A DNA stretch of 32,000 bases from Candidatus Brocadia sp. Lineage in GTDB: Bacteria > Planctomycetota > Brocadiia > Brocadiales > Brocadiaceae. Numbering within the stretch: the stretch's first letter is position 1; each line of letters opens with the position of its first letter. Shown in pieces: positions 10,920-32,000 of the stretch. The position numbers and the translations under genes are program-made. The notes under the pieces are model-generated. The model did no database searches and had not been told where the DNA came from. It was given only the letters and a program-made list of their open reading frames with translations. The stretch spans positions 300,001 through 332,000 of the forward strand of contig CP091279.1 in NCBI GenBank assembly GCA_021650915.1, given 5' to 3'.

Positions 10920-10934
10920 GGGGTAAGTGCCGTT

Positions 10935-14616: not shown

Positions 14617-14889
14617 GTGTTGATACTAACACGGAAGTTAGGTGAAAGTATTACCATCGGTGAAGAAATAAGGATTACCGTTGTAGACTGTCAGGGCAAA
14701 CAGGTTAAACTGGGAATTGTTGCGCCAAAGGAAGTTAAGGTTCATCGGGAAGAAATTTATGAAAAGATTCAGGAAGAAAATATGAAGGCTGCAAAGGTAT
14801 CGAAACAGGCGCTTATTGAAGTCGCTCAAAGTATGAAAAAGAAGGAAAAAAAATCAGGTAACAGTAGCAAAGATACGAGTTCTTCTTAA
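14617..14889 (+). CDS. csrA: Carbon storage regulator / translational repressor CsrA (long-tail, FliW-partnered type)
   Basis: [51 protein letters not shown] is canonical CsrA. GTG start behind AAAGGAA. It has an extra ~35-aa C-terminal extension. Confidence 0.95.
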
Positions 14890-14919
14890 GAAAATATCAA
14901 TAAAAAAAGGGAAAGAGTC

Positions 14920-16044: not shown

Positions 16045-16348
16045 CTGTCCTTGTCATTAGTTCCTTTTCCATCCGGTTTTTATCAGGCGGCTGAATACGC
16101 ATGTATCGCTCAGGTTTACAATAAAGAAGCCTATCAATCAACTCGTTCTCCATTTCGTTTTACAGATATTTCGGTATTTATCTTTTATGCGATCTACTGA
16201 AAAATGTTTTCGCCTTTTATAAATATTTCACCATGGATGGTTAACTTCTCCAGCCGATTTTGCGGCTATCTGTTGCAATGGCTATCCTTAAATATTGCCA
16301 GAAAATAAACTCATTGTTTCAGGAAAAAGAACACGGAGTGCCAGTCTG

Positions 16349-17287: not shown

Positions 17288-17338
17288 AGTAATACGGAAT
17301 TATACTCTTAATCTTATTACAAGATATAACTAACACTA

Positions 17339-18070: not shown

Positions 18071-18080
18071 GGAGAAAAAA

Positions 18081-19163
18081 ATGATTATAAGCAGAACACC
18101 TTACCGTATCTCCTTTTTTGGCGGTGGGACCGATTACCCGGTGTGGTATGAAAAACATGGTGGGGCTGTGCTGGCTACAACCATTGATAAGTATTGCTAT
18201 CTTACCTGCAGATATTTTCCTCCTTTTTTTGAACACAAATTTCGTATTGTTTGGTCAAAGATTGAAAATTGTGCTGATGCTCAGAAAATTAACCATCCCG
18301 CTGTACGTGAAATCTTAAATTTCTTGAAGCTCGAACGTGGTATTGAGATACATCACGTGGGTGACCTGCCAGCCAGAAGCGGTATGGGTTCAAGTTCTTC
18401 CTTTACCGTCGGGTTACTCCATGCGCTCTATGCACTGAAAGGCTATATGCCCACCAAACATCAGTTAGCAACAGAAAGCATTTTCATTGAGCAAGAACTC
18501 CTGAAAGAAACCGTTGGTTCTCAGGACCAAGTACTCGCAGCCCATGGTGGCTTCAATCAGATTCTCTTTCTTAAAAACGGTGAAATATCCGTTCATCCGA
18601 TAGTATTGCCATCAGAACGGTTTGACGAACTTAATTCACATCTTATGCTGTTCTATACGGGTATGAAACGTACCGCCTCTGATGTCGCAAGCTCCTATGT
18701 GCATGGTATAGAAGAGCGCAAACGACAATTACGCGTCATGAAGGATATTGTGGAAGAGAGTATTTCTATTCTTAATAGTAGCCATGATATTACCGCTTTT
18801 GGAGAATTGATGCACGAATCGTGGCTGGTTAAGCGTAGTTTAAGTTCCAATGTATCTAATCCACATATCGATGGAATTTATGAAACAGCTATTGCTGCGG
18901 GTGCAATTGGTGGTAAGTTAACTGGGGCAGGCGGCGGAGGATTCTTGCTTCTCTTTACTCCTCCGGACAAACGCAAAGATGTAAAGGAGGTGTTGCATAA
19001 TTTAATCTATGTGCCCTTTAAATTTGATTTCTCCGGGAGTCAGATTATTTACCATAATTTTGAGGAAGATTATTCAGGAATTGAGAAAGAGCGGGATAAT
19101 CAATCTATTATCTTATCGCGAAAACTTGAAAGTTATAACTGCCAGACATTGCAAAAAGTTTAA
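18081..19163 (+). CDS. GHMP-family sugar kinase (HddA-like, heptose-7-phosphate-kinase type)
   Basis: N terminus MIISRTPYRISFFGGGTDYPVWY, typical of the HddA subgroup. GHMP ATP motif GDLPARSGMGSSSSFTVGLLHAL and C-terminal KLTGAGGGGFLLLF. AAGGAG Shine-Dalgarno. Confidence 0.8.
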   Translation: MIISRTPYRISFFGGGTDYPVWYEKHGGAVLATTIDKYCYLTCRYFPPFFEHKFRIVWSKIENCADAQKINHPAVREILNFLKLERGIEIHHVGDLPARSGMGSSSSFTVGLLHALYALKGYMPTKHQLATESIFIEQELLKETVGSQDQVLAAHGGFNQILFLKNGEISVHPIVLPSERFDELNSHLMLFYTGMKRTASDVASSYVHGIEERKRQLRVMKDIVEESISILNSSHDITAFGELMHESWLVKRSLSSNVSNPHIDGIYETAIAAGAIGGKLTGAGGGGFLLLFTPPDKRKDVKEVLHNLIYVPFKFDFSGSQIIYHNFEEDYSGIEKERDNQSIILSRKLESYNCQTLQKV

Positions 19164-19171
19164 TTTTATAC

Positions 19172-20059
19172 GTGAATTTCCCTATGCAAAAGAACCTCTA
19201 TAAAGAATTGTTGTATCAAAAAGATATTCAAATGCTTGAAAATAAAGCCAGAGGCATCAGAGCAACCTGTATTAAAATGGCTCATGACGGTAAAGAGGGG
19301 CATTTAAATGGAGCTTTAAGTTGCGTTGATTTACTGGTCGGGCTATATTACACCTGGCTTGATGTTACACCCAATGACTCGCATAGAAAAGACAGAGATC
19401 GTTTTATATTCAGCAAAGGACATGCATGTTCATCACTTTATGCTGTAATGGCTGATCGTGGCTTTTTCCCCAAACACTGGATCTCCAGCTATGCACAAAA
19501 TGATTCTCCCTTACCGAGTCATCCGTGTATTCACGCCCTCCCGATTCTCGAATGCTCTTCGGGAAGCCTGGGACACGGGCTTGGTATGGCTACAGGCATG
19601 AGTTACGGCTTGCGAATGGATGGAATACAAGCAAGGGTGGTGGTTCTTATCAGTGACGGAGAATGTAACGAGGGGAGTACCTGGGAAGCGGCTACTTTTG
19701 CCGTGGCAAATCGACTCGATAATCTGCTGCTCATCGTAGACAATAATGGGATTCAGTCGGTAGGCCGATCAGATAGCCTGATGGGTTTCACATCGCTGGA
19801 AGAAAAATACACTGCGTTTGGCTGGACTACCCGAATGATAAATGGAAACAACATCATAGAGATTGTTGAAACATTAAAGGAATTCCCTTTTGAAAAAGGG
19901 CGTCCGTCAGCAATTATTGCAAAAACAGTAGCGGGTGCTGGTGTAAGTTTTATGAAAAATCAGGTACTCTGGCATTATCGGGTGCCATCTGACGAAGACC
20001 TTAAAAAAGCTATGCAAGAGTTAAGCGAAGTTCCCATTTATACGGAGTCAAATGCTTGA
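19172..20059 (+). CDS. Transketolase, N-terminal (thiamine-diphosphate-binding) subunit
   Basis: GHLNGALSCVDLLVGLYY, FIFSKGHACSSLYAVMADRGFF, SSGSLGHGLGMATGM and the ThDP motif ISDGECNEGSTWEAATFAVANRLDNLLLIVDNNG. The start is either GTG 19172 or ATG 19184. Confidence 0.85.
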   Translation: MNFPMQKNLYKELLYQKDIQMLENKARGIRATCIKMAHDGKEGHLNGALSCVDLLVGLYYTWLDVTPNDSHRKDRDRFIFSKGHACSSLYAVMADRGFFPKHWISSYAQNDSPLPSHPCIHALPILECSSGSLGHGLGMATGMSYGLRMDGIQARVVVLISDGECNEGSTWEAATFAVANRLDNLLLIVDNNGIQSVGRSDSLMGFTSLEEKYTAFGWTTRMINGNNIIEIVETLKEFPFEKGRPSAIIAKTVAGAGVSFMKNQVLWHYRVPSDEDLKKAMQELSEVPIYTESNA

Positions 20060-20976
20060 GAAAAGCATTCGCAGATACACTTACACAGATTGCGGAACAG
20101 AATTCTCGTGTTGTTCTTGTTACCGGTGATCTCGGATTCCAGGTTTTTGATGAATTTCATGCAAGGTTTGGCCCACGCTACATAAATGTCGGTGTTGCTG
20201 AAGCACAAATGATTTACGCGGCAGCAGGGCTTGCAACAGTTGGCTGGCGGCCTGTAACTTACTCTATTGCCTCGTTTGCAACGGCTCGACCTTTTGAGCA
20301 AATTCGTTATTGTGTAAGCTACCCAAATTTACCGGTTGTTATCGTAGGAGCAGGCAGGGGATATCTTTATTCGACCAGCGGTGTTTCACACCATGCCGCT
20401 GATGACCTTGCGCTCATGTCAGTACTTCCTGGAATGACGGTAGTAGCCCCTGGAGACCCGGACGAAGTAGTACAACTTTTCCCTCAACTATTTAATTTAC
20501 CAGGGCCTTCATATTTCACCGTAGGCCGCTTTGGCGAGCCATCGTATGAAGCCTCTGAACCAGCAATTTTAGGACGTGCCAGGCTTCTTCGTAAAGGAGA
20601 GCAAATAGCCATTATTGGTACTGGTGAAATTGCCAACGAAATACTGAAGGCAATGAAACTTCTCGAACCGGACAAGATTTTTCCAACTGTCTATCAGATG
20701 CACACGGTAAAGCCCCTGGATATGAACACGTTGAATTCGTTGGCAAAAGAGGTGCACGCTATGGTGGTGGTAGAGGAGCATGTCCCTCATGGTGGACTAT
20801 GGGCCGCCATAAGCACATGGCATATAAGTACCGAAACGACTCCTCGAATGATTCGGCTTGGCCCCCCTGATAGTTTTGTCTTTGGAAATTTACGGCAAGA
20901 CGAACTTAGGCGCCGACTCAATTTTGACGCTAACGCGATAGCAAGCACTTGTCGCTCGTTGTGGAAAAAGAAATAA
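20056..20976 (+). CDS. Transketolase, C-terminal (pyrimidine-binding) subunit
   Basis: MRKAFADTLTQIAEQNSRVVLVTGDLG...INVGVAEAQMIYAAAGLA...SHHAADDLALMSVLPGMTVVAPGD. The TTG start overlaps the stop of the N-subunit gene (TTGA), implying translational coupling. Confidence 0.85.
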   Translation: MRKAFADTLTQIAEQNSRVVLVTGDLGFQVFDEFHARFGPRYINVGVAEAQMIYAAAGLATVGWRPVTYSIASFATARPFEQIRYCVSYPNLPVVIVGAGRGYLYSTSGVSHHAADDLALMSVLPGMTVVAPGDPDEVVQLFPQLFNLPGPSYFTVGRFGEPSYEASEPAILGRARLLRKGEQIAIIGTGEIANEILKAMKLLEPDKIFPTVYQMHTVKPLDMNTLNSLAKEVHAMVVVEEHVPHGGLWAAISTWHISTETTPRMIRLGPPDSFVFGNLRQDELRRRLNFDANAIASTCRSLWKKK

Positions 20977-21130
20977 AATTTTTGTAACACTTTAGCTTTT
21001 TGAAAAAATTCCAGTAATGATGCTCTTATCGCACGCGGTAGAGGCAATTCATGAATTACCTCTCCATGTTAACACAAAGGCATTTTCAGTCATTGGCTTT
21101 TTCAAAAAACTAAAGTGTTGCAAATTTTTT
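20977..21130. repeat. 154-bp nested imperfect palindrome filling the whole intergenic spacer (MITE-like or long RNA hairpin)
   Basis: The outer arms 20981-21007 and 21098-21124 pair over 27 positions: 25 Watson-Crick pairs, one T-G and one C-A. At the centre is GAGG-c-AATTCATGAATT-a-CCTC (21041-21062), which contains a perfect 12-bp palindrome. The element starts right after the TAA stop (20974-20976) and ends at the AAGGAG Shine-Dalgarno (21131). Confidence 0.6.
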
Positions 21131-21141
21131 AAGGAGACGCT

Positions 21142-22110
21142 ATGTATCGTAAGATTTTAGTAACAGGAGGCTCTGCTGTGACTGGCAGTGCCTTAAAATC
21201 CATAATCGGTGATTATTCGGAAAGTACGTTCTTTTTCATAAATTCAAAGGATTGTAATCTGGTCGATAGCAATAAAACCATTGCATACATAAGTGAATTA
21301 CAGCCGGATGCTATCATTCATCTGGCGGCAATTAGCGGTGGTATCGGTCTGAGTATGAAATATCCAGCAACCCTATTACGGGATAACGTGTTGATGAATT
21401 TTAACATTCTTGAGGCAGGTAGGCGATGCAACATAAAAAAGATTGTTATGACCCTTACTACGGGCATGTATCCGGAGAATGCACCGCTTCCCCTCAAAGA
21501 AGAGTACATCCACAACGGTCATCCACATGAATCGAACTATGGTTCTTCGTTTGCAAAAAGGCTGGTTGATCCCGCTGTGAAAGCGTACCGGGCCGAATAT
21601 GGTTTAAATATCATAGGCTTGGTGCCAAACGGAATATTTGGTGAAAACGATAACTTCAATTACGACGATGCACCCATGGTTCCAACGCTTATCAGACGCT
21701 TTTATGAAAACAGACATGGCAATTCAAAAATAGTTATCTGGGGTGATGGTACTCCCCTTCGGGAATATACTTATGCAAAGGATGTCGCCAGGGCTTTCAT
21801 GTGGTGCCTGAACCATTATAATGATGCACAAATATTGAATATTGGCACAACTGAGGAACTTTCTGTAAAGGAAATAGCATATCTTATCGCCGGCTTCTTG
21901 AATATTGATACCAGTCGTATTGAATTTGACACAACAAAATCAAATGGAATATTCAAAAAGAGCGTAGATAATTCCCGTTTTATCAGTATCTCAAAATTCC
22001 AGTATACATCTTTTAAGGCCGGTTTGGAAAACACTATAAGGTGGTTTTGTGATACCTATCAGAAATCTCCCGAAAGCATAAGAATGAAGGGCAAAAGCAG
22101 GATCAACTAA
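21142..22110 (+). CDS. GDP-L-fucose-synthase-like (GMER/Fcl family) NDP-4-keto-sugar epimerase/reductase
   Basis: ILVTGGSAVTGSAL, DAIIHLAAISGGI, VPNGIFGENDNF and IVIWGDGTPLREYTYAKDVARAF follow the Fcl/WcaG pattern (xPxNxYGxxDNF and WGxGxPxREF). About 320 aa. AAGGAG Shine-Dalgarno. Confidence 0.75.
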   Translation: MYRKILVTGGSAVTGSALKSIIGDYSESTFFFINSKDCNLVDSNKTIAYISELQPDAIIHLAAISGGIGLSMKYPATLLRDNVLMNFNILEAGRRCNIKKIVMTLTTGMYPENAPLPLKEEYIHNGHPHESNYGSSFAKRLVDPAVKAYRAEYGLNIIGLVPNGIFGENDNFNYDDAPMVPTLIRRFYENRHGNSKIVIWGDGTPLREYTYAKDVARAFMWCLNHYNDAQILNIGTTEELSVKEIAYLIAGFLNIDTSRIEFDTTKSNGIFKKSVDNSRFISISKFQYTSFKAGLENTIRWFCDTYQKSPESIRMKGKSRIN

Positions 22111-22137
22111 GTTGGAACTATTATACTGGAAAAACCA

Positions 22138-23109
22138 ATGAAATACAGAAAACTTGGCAATACTGGAATAGAAGTATCAGAAATTGGGTTTGGCACATGG
22201 GGGCTAGGCGGTAATTCGTACGGTCCGGTCGATGACAATGTCTCTAAAACTGCCTTACGTTTTGCCTTTGATTCTGGAATAACTTTCTATGATACATCCG
22301 ATCTGTATGGCAATGGCCACAGTGAGGAAGTTCTAGGTGATGCATTGCACGATGTTAGAGATAAAATTATTATCTCTACAAAAGTTGGTTTGCTTCCGCA
22401 TACCGGCTTCGGCATGCCATGCGACTTTTCCCCTGCATACATAAGACAGGAGCTAGATGTTAGTTTAAGGCGATTAAGATCAGACTATGTTGATATCTAT
22501 CTTCTGCACAGTCCAACTATTGAAATGCTGAGAGAGGATCGAGAAATTGTTGCCACACTGCAAATCCTTAAAGAGGCTGGGAAAATCCATGCATACGGGA
22601 TTTCTGTAAGATCGCCTGATGATGGGCTTGTGGCAATTCAAGAATTTGGTATTAACGTAGTTCAGGTAAATTTTAACATGATTGATCACAGAGCAATTGA
22701 TAACGGCCTGTTTGATGTAGCCTGCGAGAAGAAGGTAGGGGTTATTGCGCGAACGCCGCTGTGTTTTGGATATTTAACAGGCAAGTTGCATGGGAACGAA
22801 AAATTTGAAGGTATAGATCACAGAGCGAATTGGCCAGTAGACCAGCGACAAAGATGGGCTAATGCCCCCGATTTATTTTTGTTCCTGAACCAAAGGAAGA
22901 ACCGTACTCCGGCACAGTCGGCGTTGCGGTTCTGCCTTGACCATAAAAGCGTTTCAACAGTTATTCCTGGTATGATGAATTGCAACGAAGTCCGAGAAAA
23001 TGCCCTGGCCAGCAGTTTGGAAGCATTGAGTGCTGAAGAAGTGGCAAGAATCAAATTGATATATGAAAACAACGTCTTTTATGACCATTCTGCTAAACAA
23101 AGAAAGTAA
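22138..23109 (+). CDS. Aldo/keto reductase
   Basis: MKYRKLGNTGIEVSEIGFGTWGLGG...GITFYDTSDLYGNGHSEEVLGDAL...YVDIYLLHSP is the classic AKR signature. Confidence 0.9.
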   Translation: MKYRKLGNTGIEVSEIGFGTWGLGGNSYGPVDDNVSKTALRFAFDSGITFYDTSDLYGNGHSEEVLGDALHDVRDKIIISTKVGLLPHTGFGMPCDFSPAYIRQELDVSLRRLRSDYVDIYLLHSPTIEMLREDREIVATLQILKEAGKIHAYGISVRSPDDGLVAIQEFGINVVQVNFNMIDHRAIDNGLFDVACEKKVGVIARTPLCFGYLTGKLHGNEKFEGIDHRANWPVDQRQRWANAPDLFLFLNQRKNRTPAQSALRFCLDHKSVSTVIPGMMNCNEVRENALASSLEALSAEEVARIKLIYENNVFYDHSAKQRK

Positions 23110-23112
23110 GCC

Positions 23113-23880
23113 GTGACTCTTCAAGATCCATCACGATTTCTAGAGCCAGCAAGGACAACAACTGGTGAAGTTCAATTTCGGGTTATTTTGGAAGATTATT
23201 TTTCAAACAGCATCGGAAGCAACGTGGAGAAACTGCAGAATTTTACCAAATATGTGCCAACGCAGGATCTGAGAAAATTCCTTTGCAGGTATGAGCTCTT
23301 TAGAAAAATCCTGCATGTTCATGGTTCAATCGTCGAATGTGGTGTGCTCTACGGTGGTGGTTTGATGGCGTGGGCGCAGTTAAGTGAAATTTTTGAACCG
23401 TTGAATCATCTTCGAAATATCATCGGTTTTGACACTTTTTCAGGTTTTGTTTCTCTTTCTGAAATGGATAAAACAGGCACTGCATTTCAGGGTAAAAATG
23501 GAGGATTGGCAATAGATGCTTATGATGACTTGCTAAAAAGTATTGCCTTATATAATAAAAATCGTTTTCTCGCCCACATAGAGAAAGTCAAATTGGTTAA
23601 AGGCGATGTTGCCGTATCTCTTCCCGCATATCTAAAGACAAATCCACATCTTGTTGTTAGCCTTTTGTATCTTGATTTTGACATATATGAACCTACAGTC
23701 GTTGCCCTTAGGCATCTAATACCAAGGATTCCTAAGGGAGGCATCATAGCTTTTGACGAACTAAACCACGAGGTTTGGCCAGGTGAAACAATTGCGGTAA
23801 TGCAGGAGATGGGTTTAAACAAGCTAAGAATAGAAAGATTTCCTTTTGGTTCTACCATGTCATATGCAGTAATTGAATGA
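23113..23880 (+). CDS. TylF/MycF-type SAM-dependent sugar O-methyltransferase
   Basis: GSIVECGVLYGGGLMAWAQL (SAM loop), YLDFDIYEPTVVALRHLIPRIPKGGIIAFDE and a size of ~255 aa match the macrocin-O-methyltransferase fold family. GTG start 3 nt after the AKR stop. Confidence 0.7.
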   Translation: MTLQDPSRFLEPARTTTGEVQFRVILEDYFSNSIGSNVEKLQNFTKYVPTQDLRKFLCRYELFRKILHVHGSIVECGVLYGGGLMAWAQLSEIFEPLNHLRNIIGFDTFSGFVSLSEMDKTGTAFQGKNGGLAIDAYDDLLKSIALYNKNRFLAHIEKVKLVKGDVAVSLPAYLKTNPHLVVSLLYLDFDIYEPTVVALRHLIPRIPKGGIIAFDELNHEVWPGETIAVMQEMGLNKLRIERFPFGSTMSYAVIE

Positions 23881-23911
23881 TCAAACTCGATATTTGAAAA
23901 AATGTGGAACG

Positions 23912-24880
23912 ATGTCTATGTATAGCCAGCGGAACTTATCAAAATTGACTATAGATGATTTTGCCAGACTATTTGGCACAACTGCAGATGATATTGACGA
24001 GTATTGCAAGGGGCTTGTAGATACGATGGATTTCAGTTTTGAACAACTTTCTGATATTGAGCGAGACAAGTTGATACTTAACATACTAAAAAGGATTGAT
24101 TTGGCCGATTTGCCTGTATCTGGGGAGGAAAGAAAGCCGGAATGGGAAAAAGGCTGGGCGGATAATCTTCGGGATTTTATTAATTCAGGATATGATCTCT
24201 CTAAACTTGTCCCAAAGTATTTCAAGAAAAATATCCCGGTTCGGCTCAATCGTGAATATGTGATGCCGGTGGATCCTGACTTTGTCCTTAATTGTACCAG
24301 GGTTTTTCGCAATTGGATATTCAGGAAATATTTGAAAGATGTCGATTCTATCTACGAATTCGGTTGCGGCCCTGCCACACACCTTGCCTTTTTGGCAGGT
24401 ATTTATCCTGGAAAGAAGCTCTATGGGCTCGACTGGGCAAAACCTTCGCAGGAAATTATCCGGCTCTTGGCAAAACATTTTGGCTGGCAAATAGAAGGAC
24501 GTCATTTTGATTTTTTTGCCCCTGATGTAAATCTGCATTTGGACGAAAACAGTGCAGTTTATACTTTTGGAGCGCTTGAGCAAATAGGAGGGAATCATAA
24601 AGCCTTCCTGCAATTTTTGTTGAAAGAATCTTTCAAGCTGTGCATTAATGTTGAATGTATCAGTGAATTCTACAATCAGGACTACTTGCCAGATTATCTC
24701 GCCTTTAAATATCACAAAAGAAGAAACTACCTGGATGGCTATCTTACCCGTTTGCAGGAATTGGAGGCTGAAGGAAAGATCATAATACTGGCAATGCACC
24801 ATCAGCAATTTGGCAATATATATGATGATTCTCATTCTTATGTGGTATGGAAACTAAGGAAAATACCTGCTACATCATAA
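23912..24880 (+). CDS. Class I SAM-dependent methyltransferase with an uncharacterised N-terminal domain
   Basis: Motif I IYEFGCGPATHLAFLAGIYPGKKLYGLDWA and a post-I acidic residue. Downstream is AVYTFGALEQIGGNHKAFLQFL. The first ~150 aa have no recognisable family. The start is uncertain among TTG 23873, ATG 23912 and ATG 23918. Confidence 0.6.
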   Translation: MSMYSQRNLSKLTIDDFARLFGTTADDIDEYCKGLVDTMDFSFEQLSDIERDKLILNILKRIDLADLPVSGEERKPEWEKGWADNLRDFINSGYDLSKLVPKYFKKNIPVRLNREYVMPVDPDFVLNCTRVFRNWIFRKYLKDVDSIYEFGCGPATHLAFLAGIYPGKKLYGLDWAKPSQEIIRLLAKHFGWQIEGRHFDFFAPDVNLHLDENSAVYTFGALEQIGGNHKAFLQFLLKESFKLCINVECISEFYNQDYLPDYLAFKYHKRRNYLDGYLTRLQELEAEGKIIILAMHHQQFGNIYDDSHSYVVWKLRKIPATS

Positions 24881-24890
24881 AAGGTTTTGT

Positions 24891-25400
24891 ATGGAAGTTA
24901 AGCAAACTAAACTTACAGGAGTTTTGACGATTAAGCCCCCTACTATTTTTGAAGATTTCAGGGGAACGTATGTTGAATTGTACAATGAACAGCTTTACAT
25001 AAATGCCGGAATAAAAGTAAAATTTATCCAGGATGATATTTCTATTTCCTCAAAGCATGTCTTACGCGGTATTCACGGTGACAAGGAAACATGGAAATTA
25101 ATTTCCTGTTTATATGGCAAATTTTATTTAGTCGTGGTTAATTGGGACAAGAATTCCCTCCAGTATTGCCAGTGGGAATCCTTCACCTTATCAGAAAAAA
25201 ATTGTATTCAAGTCTTAGTGCCTCCAAATTTTGGCATTGGCCATCTGGTTTTAAGTGAACAGGCGATATTTAGCTACAAACAAAGCACCTACTATAATCG
25301 TGCCAATCAATTTACCCTCGTGTGGAATGACCAGAAACTTAATATATGGTGGCCAATTAATAATCCAATCTTATCACAAAGAGACTCAGGGATTGGTTAA
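24891..25400 (+). CDS. RmlC-type cupin NDP-4-keto-sugar 3,5-epimerase
   Basis: TKLTGVLTIKPPTIFEDFRGTYVELYN...LRGIHG...KLISCLYGKFYLVVVN...LVPPNFGIGHLVLSE follows the dTDP-4-dehydrorhamnose 3,5-epimerase pattern (FxDxRG, RGLH, cupin core). About 170 aa. Confidence 0.8.
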   Translation: MEVKQTKLTGVLTIKPPTIFEDFRGTYVELYNEQLYINAGIKVKFIQDDISISSKHVLRGIHGDKETWKLISCLYGKFYLVVVNWDKNSLQYCQWESFTLSEKNCIQVLVPPNFGIGHLVLSEQAIFSYKQSTYYNRANQFTLVWNDQKLNIWWPINNPILSQRDSGIG

Positions 25401-25440
25401 TGCCTCTCCTGGAATGAAGCATCATTAAGGAGTCCTGGTA

Positions 25441-28400
25441 ATGTCTGTGTCTGTTAAAAACCGTGCCAGCCTGAGAGTTTTATATATTCCTTTAGAGTTT
25501 AAAACGTGGCAAAATGCAAGCCACCTTCCTTACTCTGGGAATTATGGTTTTGAAGAAGGGTTCACTGCTAACGGGATGGAATATCTGACGATTCCAGCCT
25601 TTTATGAAACGACATCTTCCGAACAGATATCATGGCTGAACCATGCACGTGAGCTTTGTGCAGGAAAAAATTTTGATCATGTTTGGCTTGAGATCGTTCA
25701 TAGTAGATTTGATGAAAGTTTTCTGGACTGGATTGCGACAATAGCTCCGGTTCGCATTGGCTTTGTCTGGGAAAGCTGTGAAATGCACCCTGACGAAATT
25801 GTAAATAATCCCGAAGGTGTCAAAAGACGACAAGCTAATCTCGAAAGGAATTTTAAATTTGTAACGCATGTCGTTGCTATTGACGAAAAAGATGTGGAAA
25901 ATTTTAACACCCATAACTTGGTAAAAACCAAATGGTTATGGGATGCCGGAATAATGCCTGAACGTTTCATCTGCAAGGAACTTCCGTCAACGCCCGCGCC
26001 CAATAATTGTGCAGTTTTTTATGGGTCTCTCTATGGTGAAAGGAAAAAATGGCTGGAACATAGCGCCTTGAAGGGTTTACTGGTCCGCCCGGTGGCTTCT
26101 CCAGAATATAGCACCAATCTGCCTGGTCTTTTTGATAAATTGAATGCTACTTCTGATGCATTTTTAAAAGAAGAGCAGGCCTCTACCGAAGAGTTCTTTT
26201 CTACTTATATAGACTCTTTGCGTGTCATTCGCAGGGAATGCTTTGCCCTTTGGCTGAGTGGACTGAGTATGGGGGTTGCGATTGTGAATTTACCGCAATT
26301 TGGTAAGGGTTATGCAAGCCGTGTACTTGAAGGGATGGCCGCGGGACGTCCGGTTATAAGCTATGAAATCCCAGACCGGCCAAGAACCAAAGCTCTCTTT
26401 GAGGATGGGAAAGAAATTTTGTTGTACAAAGGAGATGATCCTTATCAGTTGGCGGAACATATACAACGGATTTTGCGTGAGCCGGACTTTGCCAGGAGGA
26501 TCTCAGCGAATGCCAGAAGCAAAATAATGAGTTTTCATACCACGGAAAGATTGGTTAGCCAGATACTTGACTGGGTTGAAAATCGGGAAATAAATTCTTC
26601 TTTAATGGCTCATCCTTTACAAGGTAATCAAACACAGCCTGGCAACAAGATGCTGTTGACGCGAAATTTTTATGGTCCGGGAGATATCGTATTTGATGTT
26701 GGAGCAAATGTCGGCGACAAGACTCATATGTTTTTAGAGAGTGGCGCAAAGGTAATATGTTTTGAACCTCAATCTGATTGCACAACGATATTGCAGAAGA
26801 AGTACGGCAATGACAAAAGAGTAGTAATTGTTGAAAAAGGCTTGGCTGATAAAAATGGAAAAAGGCTACTTTCTGTATGCTCACAGGCTAACACAATCTC
26901 CACTTTTTCAGATGACTGGAAAAAGGGAAGATTTGCTGACTATACATGGGATAAATCTGACGTGGTAGAAGTTATTACTCTTGATGATGCTATTCATACT
27001 TATGGATTCCCTCAATACGTCAAGATTGATGTAGAAGGATTTGAATATCAGGTTCTGTGTGGTTTATCTAAACCAGTTCCATATTTATCATTTGAATTTA
27101 CAATTGAATTTCTTGATCGTGCAAAGCAGTGCATGTCTCATTTGGAGAGACTCGGTTACGAATTCTTTAATTTTTCCGAAAAAGAAATACCTCAACTGGT
27201 TCTTTCCGAATGGGTTTCCTCAAAAACTCTTTTTAAAAAATTGGAACGTTTGACAGATCAGTTATATTGGGGTGACATTTACGCAAAGTACGATACGTTA
27301 TCTCCGAATAATAAAAAAAATTTTACTCATGAAATTAAACACATTCTTCCTGATAAATCAGCAGTAGCAGCAAATATAAGAAATACGATTTCAACTGTTA
27401 ATACCAATATTCTCAAACAACTCTATATTACAGGTCTTTGGGGTGACAATCAGCCGCTTCGCCTTCACCTTGGTTGCGGAGAACAGCGCCTCGATGGCTA
27501 TGTAAATATTGATTATCCACCAAGCGAGCATAATGTCATGCAGGTGAAAGCGGATGTTTATGCGAACATTATGGAATTAGATTTTCCTGCAGGGTCTGTA
27601 GACGAGATCAGGTCGCACCATGTCTTTGAGCACTTTAATCGTGTTACAGCCCTGGCGATGCTTATCAAATGGCACCATTGGCTAAAGGTCGGCGGAAAAC
27701 TGCATATTGAGACGCCTGATCTCGTTGGTAGTGCAAAGACGTTGTTGGGCGATTACTCCTGGAAGACAAAAATGGGGGCAGTTCGGCATATAGCCGGGGA
27801 TCAGTCTTCCGGTTGGTCATATCATATTGATCACTGGTTTCCCGAAAGATTTGAACACACTTTGAATAATCTGGGATTTCGGCCTGTACAAACCCAGTCA
27901 ACATCCTGGCCACACGATCCATTTTTGTCAAACGTTACCGCTATTGCTGTAAAATCGCACAATGTCTCTTTGTCAGAGCAGGTAAAGGCCGCTGATGAAT
28001 TGTTGTGGGAAAGTACTGTTGCATCCACTGAGCAACCAACCTATGAAGTCTGGAAGCAACAGCTTCGTTCTCTTTTGTCAGACAAATCCGAAATGGCATC
28101 ACAGGTGCCTTTGGGTTCTCAGTTAGAACAGGTCGCTCACGTCTTTCAGCAATCCAAGTCAGAGCAATCAATTCAGGAAATACACGACTTTAACCAGAGA
28201 GAGCGCGACAGATGGGTTCAACTGAAGGCGGTGACCGTGCCTGCAGGTTCACGAGTGTTAGATATCGGTGCGGGAACGTGTCCCTATCGTGCGCTATTTG
28301 CGCATGGTGATTACAAAACGCATGATTTCAAACGATACACGGGTGAGAAGCTTGGTGGAACAACGGAATACGGCAAGATTGATTATGAATCGGATATTTG

Positions 28401-29049
28401 CGCTATACCCGTACCGGACAACTCCTTTGACGTAATCGTCTGCACTGAAGTCCTGGAACATACTCCGGAACCAATCGAAGCGCTCCGGGAGATGTCGAGG
28501 ATCTTAAAGGAGGGCGGCAGACTGTTCCTGACCGCTCCGCTTGGGTCCGGACTGCATCAACTGCCGTATCACTATTATGGCGGGTTCACGCCGGAATGGT
28601 ACAAGCATTTTTGCAGTAAATTCGGTTTATATGTCTCCGAAATCTCACCAAACGGGGGGTTTTTCAAACTGCTTGCTCAGGAATGTGCACGTGTGGCCTG
28701 GACATTGCCTCAACACCAGCATCTGCATGGGAATAACGTGGAGTTGATCAAAAACCTGTTCGGTGAATGGATACCTCGCTATTTATTTGAGCTGGAAAAG
28801 AAACACGGTATTGACCAGTTCACCGTCGGCTATCACGTAGAAGCTGTGAAAGTCAGAGATATCGATACCGTTCAGAAATTGATTGAAAACGATCTCCAAA
28901 ATGTGAATCTCTATCTTGAAGCCGCACGATCTCTGTTGAATCAAGGTGAGTATTTACCTGCAAGAAGGTATGTAGAAGACGCATTGGAACTCAACCATAG
29001 CAATACCACGCTTATTGAGATGCATCAACAATTGGTGAATAAGCCATGA
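25441..29049 (+). CDS. 1202-aa fusion: GT-B-like glycosyltransferase + FkbM-type methyltransferase + two class I SAM methyltransferase domains + TPR-like tail
   Basis: The GT1-type C-lobe is ASRVLEGMAAGRPVISYEIPDRPRTKALFEDGKEILLY (~26320-26440). The FkbM domain is GDIVFDVGANVGDKTH...VKIDVEGFEYQVL (~26660-27200). The second methyltransferase is LRLHLGCGEQRLDGYVNIDY...HVFEHF...LKVGGKLHIETPD (~27457-27950). The third is RVLDIGAGTCPY...FDVIVCTEVLEHTPEPIEALREMSRILKEGGRLFLTAP (~28200-28700). The tail is LYLEAARSLLNQGEYLPARRYVEDALELN. AAGGAG Shine-Dalgarno. Single uninterrupted ORF. Confidence 0.75.
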   Translation: MSVSVKNRASLRVLYIPLEFKTWQNASHLPYSGNYGFEEGFTANGMEYLTIPAFYETTSSEQISWLNHARELCAGKNFDHVWLEIVHSRFDESFLDWIATIAPVRIGFVWESCEMHPDEIVNNPEGVKRRQANLERNFKFVTHVVAIDEKDVENFNTHNLVKTKWLWDAGIMPERFICKELPSTPAPNNCAVFYGSLYGERKKWLEHSALKGLLVRPVASPEYSTNLPGLFDKLNATSDAFLKEEQASTEEFFSTYIDSLRVIRRECFALWLSGLSMGVAIVNLPQFGKGYASRVLEGMAAGRPVISYEIPDRPRTKALFEDGKEILLYKGDDPYQLAEHIQRILREPDFARRISANARSKIMSFHTTERLVSQILDWVENREINSSLMAHPLQGNQTQPGNKMLLTRNFYGPGDIVFDVGANVGDKTHMFLESGAKVICFEPQSDCTTILQKKYGNDKRVVIVEKGLADKNGKRLLSVCSQANTISTFSDDWKKGRFADYTWDKSDVVEVITLDDAIHTYGFPQYVKIDVEGFEYQVLCGLSKPVPYLSFEFTIEFLDRAKQCMSHLERLGYEFFNFSEKEIPQLVLSEWVSSKTLFKKLERLTDQLYWGDIYAKYDTLSPNNKKNFTHEIKHILPDKSAVAANIRNTISTVNTNILKQLYITGLWGDNQPLRLHLGCGEQRLDGYVNIDYPPSEHNVMQVKADVYANIMELDFPAGSVDEIRSHHVFEHFNRVTALAMLIKWHHWLKVGGKLHIETPDLVGSAKTLLGDYSWKTKMGAVRHIAGDQSSGWSYHIDHWFPERFEHTLNNLGFRPVQTQSTSWPHDPFLSNVTAIAVKSHNVSLSEQVKAADELLWESTVASTEQPTYEVWKQQLRSLLSDKSEMASQVPLGSQLEQVAHVFQQSKSEQSIQEIHDFNQRERDRWVQLKAVTVPAGSRVLDIGAGTCPYRALFAHGDYKTHDFKRYTGEKLGGTTEYGKIDYESDICAIPVPDNSFDVIVCTEVLEHTPEPIEALREMSRILKEGGRLFLTAPLGSGLHQLPYHYYGGFTPEWYKHFCSKFGLYVSEISPNGGFFKLLAQECARVAWTLPQHQHLHGNNVELIKNLFGEWIPRYLFELEKKHGIDQFTVGYHVEAVKVRDIDTVQKLIENDLQNVNLYLEAARSLLNQGEYLPARRYVEDALELNHSNTTLIEMHQQLVNKP

Positions 29050-32000
29050 AGACAAAGTTACTGTATGTTGGAATGCAATATGATTACGGCGATAAAACGA
29101 GAGGTTTTTCGTTTGAACACCGGAATTTTTACCATCCACTCAAGAGCTATTGCAAGAAGCACGATTGGGATTTTATACACTTCGATTTTATGGAGCAGGG
29201 ACTCAACGATGGTCTGGACGTGATGACACAGGGTCTCTATGAATTGGCAAAAAAAGAAATACCCGCCATTTTATTCGCCGTATTATTCGATTTTCACCGT
29301 GATCCACGATATGAGGTATTTAGGCAAATAGCATCATTAGGCACGACAACCATTCACTGGTTTTGTGACGATCACTGGCGGTTTGAGAAGTACAGCTCCG
29401 TAGTTGCCCCCCATTTTGACATCATTTGTACAACGGCGAATGACTCCCTCCCAAAGTATCACGCTATGGGAATATCCCCTAAAGTCATAAAAACTCAGTG
29501 GGCATGCAACCATGAATTGTATATTCCTTACGACATCCAAAAAGATGTAGAGATCAGTTTTGTAGGACAACCTCATGGTAATCGTGTAGAAGCATTAGCA
29601 AAATTACTGCAAAACGGATTCAAGCTGGAGGTCTTTGGTTTTGGATGGGAAAACCGGCCACGCATCCCTTTTCATCAAATGGTAAGGCTGTTTTCACGGA
29701 GTAAAATTAATCTCAATTTATCAAATTCATCAACGTTAATCGGGCAGCAGATTAAGGGAAGAAATTTTGAGATTCCGGGAACAAGAAGTTTTCAATTATC
29801 CAGCAATGCTGACAATCTCTCTGAGTACTACGAAGCGGGAAAAGAGATCATAATATTCAATTCAGTGGATGAATTAATTGAAAAGGCTACATACTACTTT
29901 AAACATGACGATGAAAGAAACGAGATAGCAAATAACGGGTACCAGCGAACCATGGCTGAACATACCTGGCAACATCGTTTTGAAAAAATATTCAATGCTA
30001 TCACTGCAAGGCAGCATAACCCAGGCATACCCGTGAAACATGTTTCTCGCTCGGATAGCATCGGGAAACAGATGGACGCACGGCAGGTGGCTGAGCCACT
30101 GGTCTCGGTAATAATTCCCTGTTACAACCAGTCAAATTATTTGTCAGAGGCAGTTGAAAGTGTGGTTCATCAAGGCTATAAGAACTGGGAGTGCATTATT
30201 GTTAATGATGGCAGCCCGGACGATGCAGCCTGCGTTGCTGAATTGTTGATTCAGAAATATCCGGACAAACGAATCCGGCTCGTGAATCAGGTGAACCAGG
30301 GCTTGTCCTCTGCGCGGAACGCAGGAATCAAGGCAGCAAACGGTGAATATATCCTTCCCCTTGATGCGGATGATCTCATCCATCAGGACATGTTGCAAAA
30401 GACAGTATCCTTATTAGCATCTCATCCGGAGATAGCAATTGCCTATACGGATGTAAGGCATTTTGGCGGTGCGGAACGAATTGTCTGTGCAGGAGAATAT
30501 GATTTTAAACGATTATGTTTTCAAAATCATCTCAATTGTTGCTCACTGTACCGGCGTAAAGCCTGGGAGGCTGCAGGGGGGTATAATCCCAACATGACGT
30601 GGGGGTACGAGGACTGGGATTTCTGGATATCCTGCGGAGAAAAAGGATATTATGGAAAGAGAATACCTGAGCCATTGTTTCTCTATCGGGTGAAAGAGAC
30701 CAGTATGTATACAAAGGCCATTGAACATCATCGTGAGTTAATGGCTCAAATTATTGTCAACCACCCAAACCTTTATGACCCGAAATCCCTTTCAGAGGCA
30801 AAAAGAATATTGGCTCCAGGGTGTACGGTTCCATTAAAAACCAAGCCCCTTGTTTCTGTTGTTGTGCCAACATATAACAGGCCAGACACCCTGAAAACTA
30901 CCTTGGAAAGCATCGCTTCGCAGACGTACAAACATATCGAGGCAGTTGTGGTGAACGACGCAGGAGAAGACGTATCAACGGTTGTCGATCTTTTTCGTGA
31001 CCGGTTGCGTATTCAATATCTTGTTCACCCTGAGAATAAAGGGCTTGCAGCAGCAAGGAATACCGCTATCAGGCATGCTTCGGGTGAATATATTGCTTAC
31101 CTCGATGACGACGATATGTTTTATCAGGATCATATAGAAACCCTGGTAACGTATCTGGAAACGAGCGGTGATAAAGTAGCCTATACGGATGCATACCGCG
31201 TATGTCAGGAAAAAGAAGGCGGAAGGTATGCCATAAAACAAAAAGACGTTCCGTACTCCTTTGATTTCGATGCAGACCTCATTCTGGCACAAAACCTCTT
31301 TCCTGTCCTCTGCGTTATGCATCGAAAATCATGTCTGGATGAAGTAGGGCTTTTTGATGAGTCGCTCACCACCCATGAAGACTGGGATTTGTGGATTCGC
31401 ATATCCAGAAACTATCATTTTACCCATATAAAAAAGATCACCGGTGAGTTTACATGGAGGACAGATAGCGCCAGCATGTCGGGTGCAAGGCAAGCTGATT
31501 TTCTGAGGACAATGGGCATTATCTATGAAAAATACAAGAGCTATTTGCGAGACAAACAGCGGATTTTAGATTTGCAAACTGCATGGATTCAGCATCTTCA
31601 AAAGGTATCTATCATCATACCCGTTTTTAACAAGGTTGAATTCACCAAAAAATGCTGTGAGGCCTTGGTCAAAAATACACCACGAGGCCTGTACGAACTT
31701 ATTATTGTTGATAACGCATCAACAGATGATACCAGCGCTTTCCTGAAGGGGCTAAAAGGTGATGTTAAAATAATAACAAACGAAAAGAACCTGGGTTTTT
31801 CCAGGGCATGTAATCAGGGGGCACGGCTGGCCGCCACCAATTACCTCCTGTTCTTAAACAATGATACCGAACCGATGAAAGGGTGGTTGGAACCGCTCCT
31901 GCATATTCTTACCCAGGATAGCTCTGCAGGCGCTGTGGGCAGTAAACTTTTATTTCCGGACGGCACCATCCAGCATGCCGGGGTGGTAATTATCGATGAT
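29046..32000 (+). CDS. Multi-glycosyltransferase fusion (CgeB-like GT-B + three GT2 domains), 3' end beyond the window
   Basis: This gene is absent from the ORF track because it has no stop in the window. I translated the frame and found it open from ATG 29046 (ATGA overlap with the upstream stop) to nt 32000, giving 985 codons. The CgeB/Glyco_trans_1_2-like part is SKINLNLSNSS...IKGRNFEIPGTRSFQLS...NNGYQRTMAEHTW (~29046-30010). GT2 domain 1 is VSVIIPCYNQSNYL...NDGSPDD...LDADD (~30098-30720). GT2 domain 2 is VSVVVPTYNRPDTL...VNDAGED...LDDDD (~30849-31500). GT2 domain 3 is VSIIIPVFNKVEF...VDNASTDDT...FLNNDT (~31605 onward). Confidence 0.8.
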   Translation, partial: MKTKLLYVGMQYDYGDKTRGFSFEHRNFYHPLKSYCKKHDWDFIHFDFMEQGLNDGLDVMTQGLYELAKKEIPAILFAVLFDFHRDPRYEVFRQIASLGTTTIHWFCDDHWRFEKYSSVVAPHFDIICTTANDSLPKYHAMGISPKVIKTQWACNHELYIPYDIQKDVEISFVGQPHGNRVEALAKLLQNGFKLEVFGFGWENRPRIPFHQMVRLFSRSKINLNLSNSSTLIGQQIKGRNFEIPGTRSFQLSSNADNLSEYYEAGKEIIIFNSVDELIEKATYYFKHDDERNEIANNGYQRTMAEHTWQHRFEKIFNAITARQHNPGIPVKHVSRSDSIGKQMDARQVAEPLVSVIIPCYNQSNYLSEAVESVVHQGYKNWECIIVNDGSPDDAACVAELLIQKYPDKRIRLVNQVNQGLSSARNAGIKAANGEYILPLDADDLIHQDMLQKTVSLLASHPEIAIAYTDVRHFGGAERIVCAGEYDFKRLCFQNHLNCCSLYRRKAWEAAGGYNPNMTWGYEDWDFWISCGEKGYYGKRIPEPLFLYRVKETSMYTKAIEHHRELMAQIIVNHPNLYDPKSLSEAKRILAPGCTVPLKTKPLVSVVVPTYNRPDTLKTTLESIASQTYKHIEAVVVNDAGEDVSTVVDLFRDRLRIQYLVHPENKGLAAARNTAIRHASGEYIAYLDDDDMFYQDHIETLVTYLETSGDKVAYTDAYRVCQEKEGGRYAIKQKDVPYSFDFDADLILAQNLFPVLCVMHRKSCLDEVGLFDESLTTHEDWDLWIRISRNYHFTHIKKITGEFTWRTDSASMSGARQADFLRTMGIIYEKYKSYLRDKQRILDLQTAWIQHLQKVSIIIPVFNKVEFTKKCCEALVKNTPRGLYELIIVDNASTDDTSAFLKGLKGDVKIITNEKNLGFSRACNQGARLAATNYLLFLNNDTEPMKGWLEPLLHILTQDSSAGAVGSKLLFPDGTIQHAGVVIIDD

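What the first reader, a model, noticed from the sequence alone, without database searches (positions are those of the whole stretch)
25441..29049. 1202-aa single polypeptide fusing a GT-B-like domain, an FkbM methyltransferase, two class I methyltransferases and a TPR-like tail
One uninterrupted ORF carries four catalytic-type modules in series, with SAM motifs DVGANVGD, LHLGCG and LDIGAGT in three separate methyltransferase folds. With the two upstream stand-alone methyltransferases, that makes five methyltransferase domains in 6 kb. Multi-domain terminating or modifying enzymes are known, for example E. coli O9a WbdD, a kinase-methyltransferase that caps the polymannose chain and sets its length. 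I do not recognise a GT plus triple-methyltransferase architecture as a described enzyme. It could add one sugar and then install several distinct O- or N-methyl groups, or cap and terminate the glycan built by the neighbouring multi-GT protein. The ATGA overlap with the next gene suggests stoichiometric co-production of the two.
Basis: partly seen in the sequence, partly recalled or inferred. Interest (0 to 1): 0.75.

Follow-up and report, generated by a model that had tools for sequence, protein, structure and literature searches.

The report
Sugar-adding, triple-methylating enzyme beside flagellar genes
One real 1202-residue protein of an anammox bacterium (Candidatus Brocadia) joins a complete sugar-transferase domain to three intact methyltransferase domains; it sits at the end of the flagellar operon, is uncharacterised, and is a candidate source of the heavily methylated protein glycans of these bacteria.

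Summary
The ORF at 25441-29049 is real. It has an AAGGAG ribosome-binding site and overlaps the next gene by ATGA. It is intact in at least six independent Brocadia assemblies. The only split version, in an older B. fulgida assembly, comes from a one-base deletion; three more deletions on that contig break three other genes.

All four catalytic-type modules hold up:
- **N module:** a complete GT4-like GT-B fold (AlphaFold2 pLDDT 93; top PDB matches PglA, ManT, PimA).
- **FkbM module:** above the curated family thresholds.
- **Two class I methyltransferase modules:** SAM motifs are at least 95% conserved in 28-43 homologues.

The "TPR tail" is below threshold. The second upstream "methyltransferase" is supported only by a motif.

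The gene lies in a variable, all-cytoplasmic glycosylation island directly after flgK-flgL-fliW-csrA. A 1557-residue protein with five GT-type modules plus TPRs follows it. The island has no flippase, ABC transporter or oligosaccharyltransferase. The most likely role is to add one sugar to a protein-linked glycan, probably on flagellin, and to methylate up to three positions.

The modules are shuffled or encoded separately in relatives. The exact four-module set is rare, seen in Brocadia, one Nitrospiraceae MAG (different order) and a few unnamed metagenome contigs. I rate it a new variant of known multi-module glycan enzymes such as WsaE and K. pneumoniae O7 ORF6. It is not WbdD-like.

The parts
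25441..29049 (+). Single ORF of 1202 aa: GT-B module, FkbM module, two class I methyltransferase modules and a short helical tail
   Evidence: Intact in L001-3, L088, L090-92.
25427..25432 (+). Shine-Dalgarno AAGGAG, 8 nt before the ATG
   Evidence: read from the sequence
25471..26595 (+). Module N (aa 11-385): complete GT4-like GT-B glycosyltransferase fold. Pfam recognises only the C-terminal half (PF13524).
   Evidence: AF2 pLDDT 93, pTM 0.91. Foldseek against PDB gives full-length matches to PglA, ManT, GlgM, SPS, BshA and PimA, E 1e-11 to 1e-8. 34 positions are at least 95% conserved in 93 proteins. Profile-versus-PDB alignment.
26656..27315 (+). Module F (aa 406-625): FkbM-family SAM methyltransferase, with motif VFDVGANVGD and KIDVEGFE
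   Evidence: TIGR01444 86.5 bits against 37.7; PF05050 42-46 bits against 22.7. F418, D419, G421, A422, G425, E442, D530, G533 and E535 are at least 95% conserved.
27388..28080 (+). Module M2 (aa 650-880): class I SAM methyltransferase, with motif LHLGCGE, NIDY and HHVFEHF
   Evidence: PF08241 22.0 bits against 21.2. AF2 pLDDT 83. All top Foldseek matches are class I methyltransferases. 56 positions are at least 95% conserved in 43 proteins.
28138..28851 (+). Module M3 (aa 900-1137): class I SAM methyltransferase (Methyltransf_11/23/25/31), with motif VLDIGAGT
   Evidence: PF08241 57-77 bits. PDB sequence matches to MitM, YcgJ and the D-glucose O-methyltransferase 6uv6. 72 positions are at least 95% conserved in 36 proteins.
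28852..29046 (+). C-terminal helical tail (aa 1138-1202), TPR-like but below threshold
   Evidence: TPR_14 14.3-17.5 bits against 23.5. Present in 10 homologues only.
29046..32000 (+). Overlapping next gene (ATGA), which runs off the window. It is 1557 aa in L088: a PF13524-type GT-B-like module, four GT2 modules and C-terminal TPRs.
23113..23880 (+). Stand-alone TylF-like O-methyltransferase
   Evidence: PF05711 E 3.5e-9
23873..24880 (+). Unassigned ORF with a SAM-like motif (EFGCGPA...GLDW); possible methyltransferase
   Evidence: No Pfam or NCBIfam hit. Motif read. PDB methyltransferase matches at E 0.13-0.2.
16295..25400 (+). Sugar-nucleotide genes of the island: SDR epimerase/dehydratase, NTP-transferase, GHMP kinase, split transketolase, GDP-fucose-synthase-like reductase, aldo-keto reductase and RmlC-like epimerase. 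The two methyltransferase candidates listed above also lie in this span.
10377..16044 (+). Flagellar genes directly upstream on the same strand: flgN, flgK, flgL-like, fliW, csrA, then a TPR-only protein
   Evidence: The rest of the operon (fliK to flgJ) lies at 778-10422.

Best explanation
This is a genuine, soluble, cytoplasmic multi-module glycan-building and glycan-tailoring enzyme. It is encoded in the variable glycosylation island that ends the flagellar operon of Candidatus Brocadia.

**Proposed mechanism (inferred, not shown).**
- The N-terminal GT4-like GT-B module transfers one sugar from a nucleotide sugar, probably one made by the island's own genes, onto a protein-linked O-glycan. 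The most likely target protein is flagellin, before its export through the flagellar apparatus.
- The FkbM module and the two class I SAM methyltransferase modules then methylate up to three positions of that sugar or of neighbouring sugars.
- It works with the translationally coupled 1557-aa protein (five GT-type modules plus TPRs), which builds the rest of the chain.
- The number and kind of modules fused in each species would set the decoration pattern.

**Shown here:** the ORF, the fold of two modules, family membership of the other two, motif conservation, genomic context and module shuffling.

**Inferred:** that the GT module is active, what the substrates are, that methylation is on sugar hydroxyls, and that flagellin is the target.
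For: **The ORF is real and the fusion is not an artefact.**
-.
- The split version in GCA_000987375.1 differs from the window by 0 mismatches and 4 one-base deletions. Each deletion breaks one gene.

**The modules look functional.**
- N is a complete GT-B fold. The GT4-type second Glu (E297) and an Arg/Lys after the first strand of the C-terminal half (R201) are conserved in 93 proteins.
- F, M2 and M3 have intact SAM motif I and the acidic residue at the end of strand 2 (E442, D691, D962), all at least 95% conserved.

**Context.**
- The organism is Candidatus Brocadia, by exact protein matches.
- The same-strand gene order is fliK...flgK-flgL-fliW-csrA-TPR, then sugar genes, then this ORF, then the 1557-aa multi-GT, then ksgA.
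- No protein of the island has a membrane segment, and no transporter or oligosaccharyltransferase family was detected.

**Variation at the same locus between Brocadia species.**
- B. sinica has a 1205-1207-aa orthologue.
- B. pituitae has a 1445-aa N-GT2-M2-M3 protein.
- Other Brocadiaceae have a 953-955-aa N-M2-M3 protein.

**Relatives in other organisms keep the same companions.** These are a GHMP kinase, a ThDP enzyme and, in L004 and L006, a giant multi-GT2 protein; in L009 the downstream gene is a GT1-type protein.

**The modules occur as separate genes elsewhere.** The fusion therefore marks functional coupling.

**Literature.**
- Anammox glycoproteins carry unusually many methyl groups, and also heptose chains (PMC5088730; bioRxiv 10.1101/2020.12.03.409086).
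- FkbM and SAM methyltransferases are common in flagellin glycosylation islands (PMC5109656).
Against: - No experiment and no glycan structure exists for Brocadia flagellin, and no flagellin gene lies in the window.
- The flagellin target rests on gene position only. In L004, L006 and L009 no flagellar gene lies within 10 kb of the homologue.
- The first Glu of the GT4 EX7E motif is replaced by a variable residue (K289).
- My literature search for PF13524 found no characterised member, so GT activity is not assured.
- The methyl acceptor could be N, C or a protein side chain instead of a sugar hydroxyl.
- TM-scores to PDB structures are moderate: 0.5-0.6 for N and 0.4-0.5 for M2.
Confidence: 0.55

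Rival explanations
1. The enzymology is the same, but the target is a different glycan: the S-layer or another surface glycoprotein, or an envelope or extracellular polysaccharide. In that case the methylated terminal sugar acts as a chain cap, as with WsaE, WbdD or K. pneumoniae O7 ORF6.
For: - Kuenenia S-layer O-glycans carry up to five methyl groups on six sugars, including a dimethyl-deoxyhexose, and also oligo-heptose chains. No genes have been assigned to them (PMC5088730).
- The island's kinase and nucleotidyltransferase resemble HddA and HddC below threshold.
- Homologues outside Brocadia are not next to flagellar genes, and L009 has a GT9 heptosyltransferase nearby.
- Proteins that combine methyltransferase and GT modules are proven terminators in ABC-transporter pathways.
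Against: - The island has no ABC transporter, flippase, initiating phosphoglycosyltransferase or oligosaccharyltransferase, and no membrane protein at all.
- There is no kinase and no coiled-coil ruler. The M2 model shows only two short helices after the fold.
- In all Brocadia assemblies the island directly follows fliW-csrA on the same strand.
Confidence: 0.25
2. The N-terminal GT-B module is not catalytic. It serves as an acceptor-binding or docking module, so the protein is only a triple methyltransferase recruited to the glycan-assembly complex.
For: - The first Glu of EX7E is absent and the position is variable.
- Only PF13524 passes its threshold clearly. Glycos_transf_1 scores 25.3-27.5 bits against 26.4.
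- The same module is fused to many unrelated tailoring modules (radical SAM/B12, GT2, TPR, methyltransferase) in more than 90 proteins, as an adaptor might be.
- My literature search for PF13524 found no characterised member.
Against: - The model is a complete two-lobe GT-B fold of high confidence.
- 34 positions are at least 95% conserved across 93 proteins. Many are polar: H87, R105, E111, H143, D148, E149, D151, R201, R264, R294 and E297. This pattern is typical of an active site.
- Stand-alone copies of about 370-385 aa exist.
Confidence: 0.2
3. One or more of the methyltransferase modules methylates the protein substrate itself, for example flagellin lysines as Salmonella FliB does, and not the glycan.
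For: - The flagellar context.
- Class I methyltransferase folds do not reveal the acceptor type.
- Flagellin lysine methylation by FliB is known in Salmonella (my own knowledge, not checked here).
Against: - The modules are fused to a GT module and sit among sugar genes.
- M2-M3 and F-M2 units occur widely in multi-GT proteins outside flagellar loci.
- No similarity to a FliB-type family was reported by Pfam or NCBIfam.
Confidence: 0.08

Closest known systems
WsaE of Geobacillus stearothermophilus NRS 2004/3a (S-layer glycan; PMC2943079)
   Same: One soluble polypeptide combines methyltransferase and glycosyltransferase modules. Its start and stop codons overlap those of neighbouring genes in a glycan cluster. 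The methyl group goes onto a sugar of the nascent chain.
   Different: WsaE has one methyltransferase and two rhamnosyltransferase modules. It works on a lipid-linked chain with a Wzm/Wzt transporter and the WsaB oligosaccharyltransferase, none of which is present here. Here there is one GT-B module and three methyltransferase modules. Sequence homology to WsaE was not tested.
K. pneumoniae O7 ORF6 and E. coli O9a WbdD (chain terminators; PMC11231755)
   Same: Multi-module organisation of glycan assembly, with methylation at the non-reducing end. Catalytic modules are distributed variably between single-module and multi-module proteins.
   Different: Those enzymes pair a methyltransferase with a kinase and carry a coiled-coil molecular ruler. 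They depend on an ABC transporter. None of these features is present here.
Mycobacterial methylmannose polysaccharide system (ManT GT4 plus separate methyltransferases)
   Same: A GT4 GT-B enzyme works with SAM O-methyltransferases to make a heavily methylated glycan. The ManT structure 7qsg is the fourth-best fold match of the N module.
   Different: The match is at fold level only (13% identity). The mycobacterial enzymes are separate proteins and make a cytoplasmic polysaccharide, not a protein-linked glycan (the biology is from my own knowledge).
Flagellin glycosylation islands (Geobacillus, Pseudomonas, Clostridium, Campylobacter; PMC5109656)
   Same: A variable block of sugar-nucleotide, GT and methyltransferase genes next to flagellar genes, including FkbM-type and other SAM methyltransferases. 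Soluble enzymes act in the cytoplasm.
   Different: In those islands the methyltransferases are separate small proteins. A recognised flagellin glycosyltransferase type (Maf, FlmG, GmaR) was not identified here. Glycosylation of Brocadia flagellin has not been shown.

Membership tests
GT-B glycosyltransferase, GT4-like (module N) | Two Rossmann-like lobes forming the GT-B fold | tested here: met
   AF2 model with pLDDT 93 and pTM 0.91. Full-length Foldseek matches to GT4 structures, E 1.7e-11 to 1e-7, TM 0.5-0.6.
GT-B glycosyltransferase, GT4-like (module N) | EX7E signature in the C-terminal lobe | tested here: inconclusive
   The second Glu is present and at least 95% conserved (E297). The first Glu aligns with K289, a variable position.
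GT-B glycosyltransferase, GT4-like (module N) | Curated Pfam threshold | tested here: met
   PF13524 48.9-50.6 bits against 25. PF00534 is borderline at 25.3-27.5 bits against 26.4.
GT-B glycosyltransferase, GT4-like (module N) | Sugar transfer from a nucleotide sugar | not testable with these tools
   Needs an enzyme assay.
FkbM-family methyltransferase (module F) | Score above the curated cut-offs of TIGR01444 and PF05050 | tested here: met
   86.5 bits against 37.7, and 42-46 bits against 22.7.
FkbM-family methyltransferase (module F) | Conserved glycine-rich SAM loop and the DVEGxE motif | tested here: met
   F418, D419, G421, A422, G425, E442, D530, G533 and E535 are at least 95% conserved in 28 proteins.
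Class I SAM methyltransferase (module M2) | Rossmann-like methyltransferase fold | tested here: met
   AF2 pLDDT 83. All 50 listed Foldseek matches are methyltransferases; the best is 2p8j at E 3.8e-9. TM-scores are only 0.36-0.48.
Class I SAM methyltransferase (module M2) | Motif I (xxGxGxG-like) and an acidic residue at the end of strand 2 | tested here: met
   LHLGCG at 675-680 and D691 are at least 95% conserved in 43 proteins. PF08241 22.0 bits against 21.2.
Class I SAM methyltransferase (module M3) | Pfam Methyltransf_11/23/25/31 above threshold, and motif I | tested here: met
   57-77 bits against 21.2. D941, G943, A944, G945 and D962 are at least 95% conserved in 36 proteins.
TPR repeat (tail) | Pfam TPR model above its gathering score | tested here: not met
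   TPR_14 14.3-17.5 bits against 23.5; TPR_2 11.9 bits against 27.
WbdD-type chain terminator | Kinase module paired with the methyltransferase | tested here: not met
   No kinase family in Pfam or NCBIfam scans of the protein.
WbdD-type chain terminator | Coiled-coil molecular ruler | tested here: not met
   The model of aa 640-890 shows only two short helices after the fold. No long unassigned segment remains between modules. No dedicated coiled-coil predictor was run.
WbdD-type chain terminator | Wzm/Wzt ABC transporter in the locus | tested here: not met
   No such family and no membrane segment in any island protein.
Flagellin glycosylation island | Position next to flagellar structural or regulatory genes | tested here: met
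   Directly downstream of flgK-flgL-fliW-csrA on the same strand. The layout is the same in other Brocadia assemblies.
Flagellin glycosylation island | Gene content varies between related strains or species | tested here: met
   Different module sets in B. fulgida, B. sinica, B. pituitae and other Brocadiaceae. That these lie at the same locus is inferred from neighbouring accession numbers for B. sinica and B. pituitae.
Flagellin glycosylation island | Flagellin carries the glycan | not testable with these tools
   Needs mass spectrometry of Brocadia flagellin. No flagellin gene lies in the window.

The most novel reading that the evidence does not exclude
The protein is a self-contained 'add one sugar, then methylate every free hydroxyl' capping machine. 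The number of fused methyltransferase modules would then directly encode the methylation degree of the terminal sugar:
- N-M2-M3 in some Brocadiaceae would give a dimethyl sugar, like the dimethyl-deoxyhexose found on the Kuenenia S-layer.
- N-F-M2-M3 here would give a trimethyl sugar.

This would provide a readable genetic code for the unusually hydrophobic, heavily methylated glycans of anammox bacteria.
Probability: 0.15. Interest if true: 0.65.

Novelty: new variant of a known kind. Interest (0 to 1): 0.42.

Why it matters
Anammox bacteria cannot be grown in pure culture or manipulated genetically. The genes behind their heavily methylated surface glycans were not assigned in the two studies read here (PMC5088730; bioRxiv 10.1101/2020.12.03.409086).

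This protein and its module-shuffled relatives are concrete candidates that can be expressed and tested in vitro. More broadly, the family shows how glycan decoration can vary by recombining autonomous GT and methyltransferase modules. Fusions of this kind predict which separately encoded enzymes act together in other genomes.

The work also corrects a public annotation. The split genes in the B. fulgida assembly GCA_000987375.1 are frameshift artefacts.

Tried and rejected
- **Assembly or frameshift artefact creating the fusion: rejected.** The opposite is true. The one split version is itself the artefact.
- **Degenerate pseudo-methyltransferase domains: rejected**.
- **N module as a paralogue of the N-terminal PF13524 module of the 1557-aa neighbour: rejected.** BLASTP found no significant similarity (best E 5.3). 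They share only a Pfam family.
- **WbdD-like terminator: rejected as a membership claim** (see the membership tests).
- **Promoter and terminator scans of 14-32 kb:** no more sites than in shuffled sequence, so uninformative.
- **Composition profile:** no GC anomaly to mark the island as recently acquired.
- **Sequence searches of PDB with the M2 profile and with module F:** almost nothing found. A structure prediction was needed for M2. F rests on family models only.
- **The genome-contig scan** used FkbM peptide patterns, so it mostly returned unrelated FkbM proteins. Only L009 was a multi-module relative.
- **Literature searches** for a characterised PF13524 member, for anammox flagellin glycosylation and for Brocadia glycosyltransferases found nothing relevant.
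- **Not attempted:** a full-length model to see whether the active sites face a common channel.

Full report
**Observation**

The ORF is exactly as described: 25441..29049 on the + strand, ATG start, 1202 codons, no internal stop. A canonical AAGGAG lies at 25427-25432, 8 nt upstream of the ATG. The stop codon overlaps the ATG of the next ORF as ATGA at 29046-29049.

Pfam and NCBIfam place these domains:
- PF13524 (Glyco_trans_1_2) on aa 283-377.
- FkbM on aa 417-546 (TIGR01444, 86.5 bits against a cut-off of 37.7).
- A weak Methyltransf_11 match near aa 706-755 (22.0 bits against 21.2).
- A strong Methyltransf_11/23/25/31 match on aa 934-1049.

TPR models stay below threshold (14-17.5 bits against 23.5).

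**Is the fusion real?**

The window comes from Candidatus Brocadia, an anammox planctomycete. Eight window proteins are exact matches to proteins of Ca. Brocadia fulgida and Brocadia sp..

The same 1202-aa product is called in three Logan assemblies, in GCA_020846915.1 and GCA_021405145.1, and in two further runs. The DNA of five of these loci aligns to the window with 0-30 mismatches and no gaps.

Only the older B. fulgida assembly GCA_000987375.1 splits the gene, into 807 + 395 aa. That contig has 0 mismatches to the window but four one-base deletions, at window positions 20540, 21198, 27795 and 30563. Each deletion breaks a different gene. The split is therefore the artefact, not the fusion.

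Full-length relatives exist at 85% identity (B. sinica, annotated only as 'FkbM family methyltransferase'), and at 79, 63, 54, 47 and 46%.

**Anatomy**

BLAST and phmmer against the homologues define the modules:
- N: aa 11-385.
- F: aa 406-625.
- M2: aa 650-880.
- M3: aa 900-1137.
- A 65-residue tail.

*Module N.* An AlphaFold2 model built on 34 sequences is confident (pLDDT 93, pTM 0.91). It matches retaining GT4 GT-B enzymes over their full length: PglA, the methylmannose-polysaccharide mannosyltransferase ManT, GlgM, sucrose-phosphate synthase, BshA and PimA (E 1.7e-11 to about 1e-8). N is therefore a complete GT-B fold, not just the C-terminal half that Pfam sees.

In the profile-to-PDB alignment, the conserved E297 matches the second Glu of the GT4 EX7E motif. 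The first Glu aligns with a variable residue, K289. Thirty-four positions, many of them polar, are at least 95% conserved in 93 proteins.

*Module M2.* It has almost no sequence match in PDB. Its model (pLDDT 83) matches only class I SAM methyltransferases.

*SAM motifs.* The glycine-rich loop and the acidic strand-2 residue are at least 95% conserved in F (28 proteins), M2 (43) and M3 (36).

*Tail.* It is helical and TPR-like but sub-threshold. It is present in only 10 relatives.

**Modularity**

Relatives carry many combinations:
- N-M2-M3: about 955 aa, in Brocadiaceae including Ca. Wunengus.
- N-M2-F-M3: including a Nitrospiraceae MAG, L009.
- M2-F-M3.
- F-M2-M3.
- N-GT2-M2-M3: 1445 aa, in B. 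pituitae.
- N fused to radical-SAM/B12, GT2 or TPR modules, in more than 50 proteins.
- Stand-alone N (about 370-385 aa), F-M2, M2-M3, M2 and M3.

An exhaustive search of 1.84 billion representatives found 1409 with E of 1e-30 or better. The M2-M3 pair is the commonest unit. All four modules in this order appear in only two or three 50%-identity clusters.

**Context**

Everything in the window is on the + strand, in this order:
- fliK, flgD, flgE, flgF, flgG, flgA, flgH, flgI, flgJ-like.
- flgN, flgK, flgL-like, fliW, then csrA and a 374-aa TPR-only protein.
- An SDR enzyme, an NTP-transferase, a GHMP kinase, a split transketolase, a GDP-fucose-synthase-like reductase, an aldo-keto reductase, a TylF-like methyltransferase, an unassigned ORF with a SAM-like motif, and an RmlC-like epimerase.
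- This ORF.
- A 1557-aa protein with a PF13524 module, four GT2 modules and C-terminal TPRs.

In L088 a small ORF and ksgA follow, so the island ends there.

None of the 13 island proteins has a membrane-spanning segment. No flippase, ABC transporter, initiating phosphoglycosyltransferase or oligosaccharyltransferase family was detected.

Relatives at 47-63% identity in other organisms keep a GHMP kinase and a ThDP enzyme as neighbours. L004 and L006 also have a giant multi-GT2 protein downstream. They have no flagellar genes within 10 kb.

**Mechanism**

The best-supported reading is a cytoplasmic assembly line that decorates a protein directly. In this reading the multi-GT neighbour builds the chain, this protein adds one sugar through its GT-B module, and its three methyltransferase modules methylate up to three positions.

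In Brocadia, the position after fliW-csrA, the all-soluble gene set and the variability between species fit a flagellin glycosylation island. FkbM and other SAM methyltransferases are typical members of such islands (PMC5109656).

The main rival is that the product decorates the S-layer or another surface glycan. Kuenenia S-layer O-glycans carry up to five methyl groups on six sugars, and also carry heptose chains. Neither paper I read assigns genes to them (PMC5088730; bioRxiv 10.1101/2020.12.03.409086). The lack of any export or transfer machinery in the island argues against this rival.

Two further rivals remain open:
- The N module may be a non-catalytic docking domain.
- One or more methyltransferase modules may methylate the protein substrate itself.

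**Comparison with known systems**

Enzymes that combine GT and methyltransferase modules are established. WsaE has a methyltransferase and two rhamnosyltransferase modules (PMC2943079). K. pneumoniae O7 ORF6 is methyltransferase-kinase-coiled coil-GT2-GT2 (PMC11231755).

This protein works like them in principle, but it is not a member of the WbdD/ORF6 terminator class. It has no kinase, no coiled-coil ruler and no ABC-transporter pathway. I found no report of a GT-B module fused to three methyltransferase modules.

**Verdict**

- It is a new variant of a known kind.
- Interest is moderate. The architecture is one combination within a large combinatorial family that is common in environmental bacteria. 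It does give a testable candidate for the heavy glycan methylation of anammox bacteria.

Noticed in passing
window 20540, 21198, 27795, 30563 (against L089 = LAQJ01000213.1): The public Ca. Brocadia fulgida assembly GCA_000987375.1 lacks one base at each of these four positions. As a result it annotates four genes as fragments: transketolase C, the GDP-fucose-synthase-like reductase, this ORF and the 1557-aa GT. Apart from these deletions the contig is identical to the window over 17 kb.
   Followed up: yes
window 17339-20976; also L004, L006, L009: A GHMP kinase and a ThDP enzyme (split transketolase, or a YerE-like enzyme in L009), with an NTP-transferase in the window and L004, accompany this protein family in distant organisms. 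The kinase and transferase resemble HddA and HddC only below threshold (145 bits against 600; 150 against 300). This suggests an undescribed pathway to a higher-carbon or branched sugar.
   Followed up: partly
window 23873-24880: An ORF of 320-335 aa with no Pfam or NCBIfam family. It has an EFGCGPA...GLDW SAM-like motif. A 320-aa gene with no Pfam hit also lies in the Ca. Wunengus locus L005, but I did not compare the two.
   Followed up: partly
window 14617-16044: csrA is followed by a 374-aa protein made only of TPR repeats. From my own knowledge, Bacillus-type flgK-flgL-fliW-csrA operons carry the flagellin gene at this position. No flagellin gene is in the window. The TPR protein could be a substrate adaptor for the glycosylation enzymes.
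   Followed up: no
window 29046-32000 and L088 14156-18829: The 1557-aa neighbour packs a PF13524-type GT-B-like module, four GT2 modules and a C-terminal TPR array into one protein. Its PF13524 module shows no detectable sequence similarity to module N of the 1202-aa protein (best BLASTP E 5.3).
   Followed up: partly
proteins P0045-P0112, P0295-P0375: The N-type GT-B module is a widespread building block. It is found at the N-terminus or inside proteins of up to 3735 aa, is duplicated in P0045 and P0046, and is fused to B12/radical-SAM, GT2, TPR and methyltransferase modules.
   Followed up: partly
window 28000-28180 (aa 855-925): The linker between M2 and M3 is itself conserved (L855, S858, V860, E864, W871, E913, then F917, N918, Q919, R922, D923, W925). 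M2-M3 is usually found as one unit. The two methyltransferase folds may therefore form a fixed didomain and not beads on a string.
   Followed up: no
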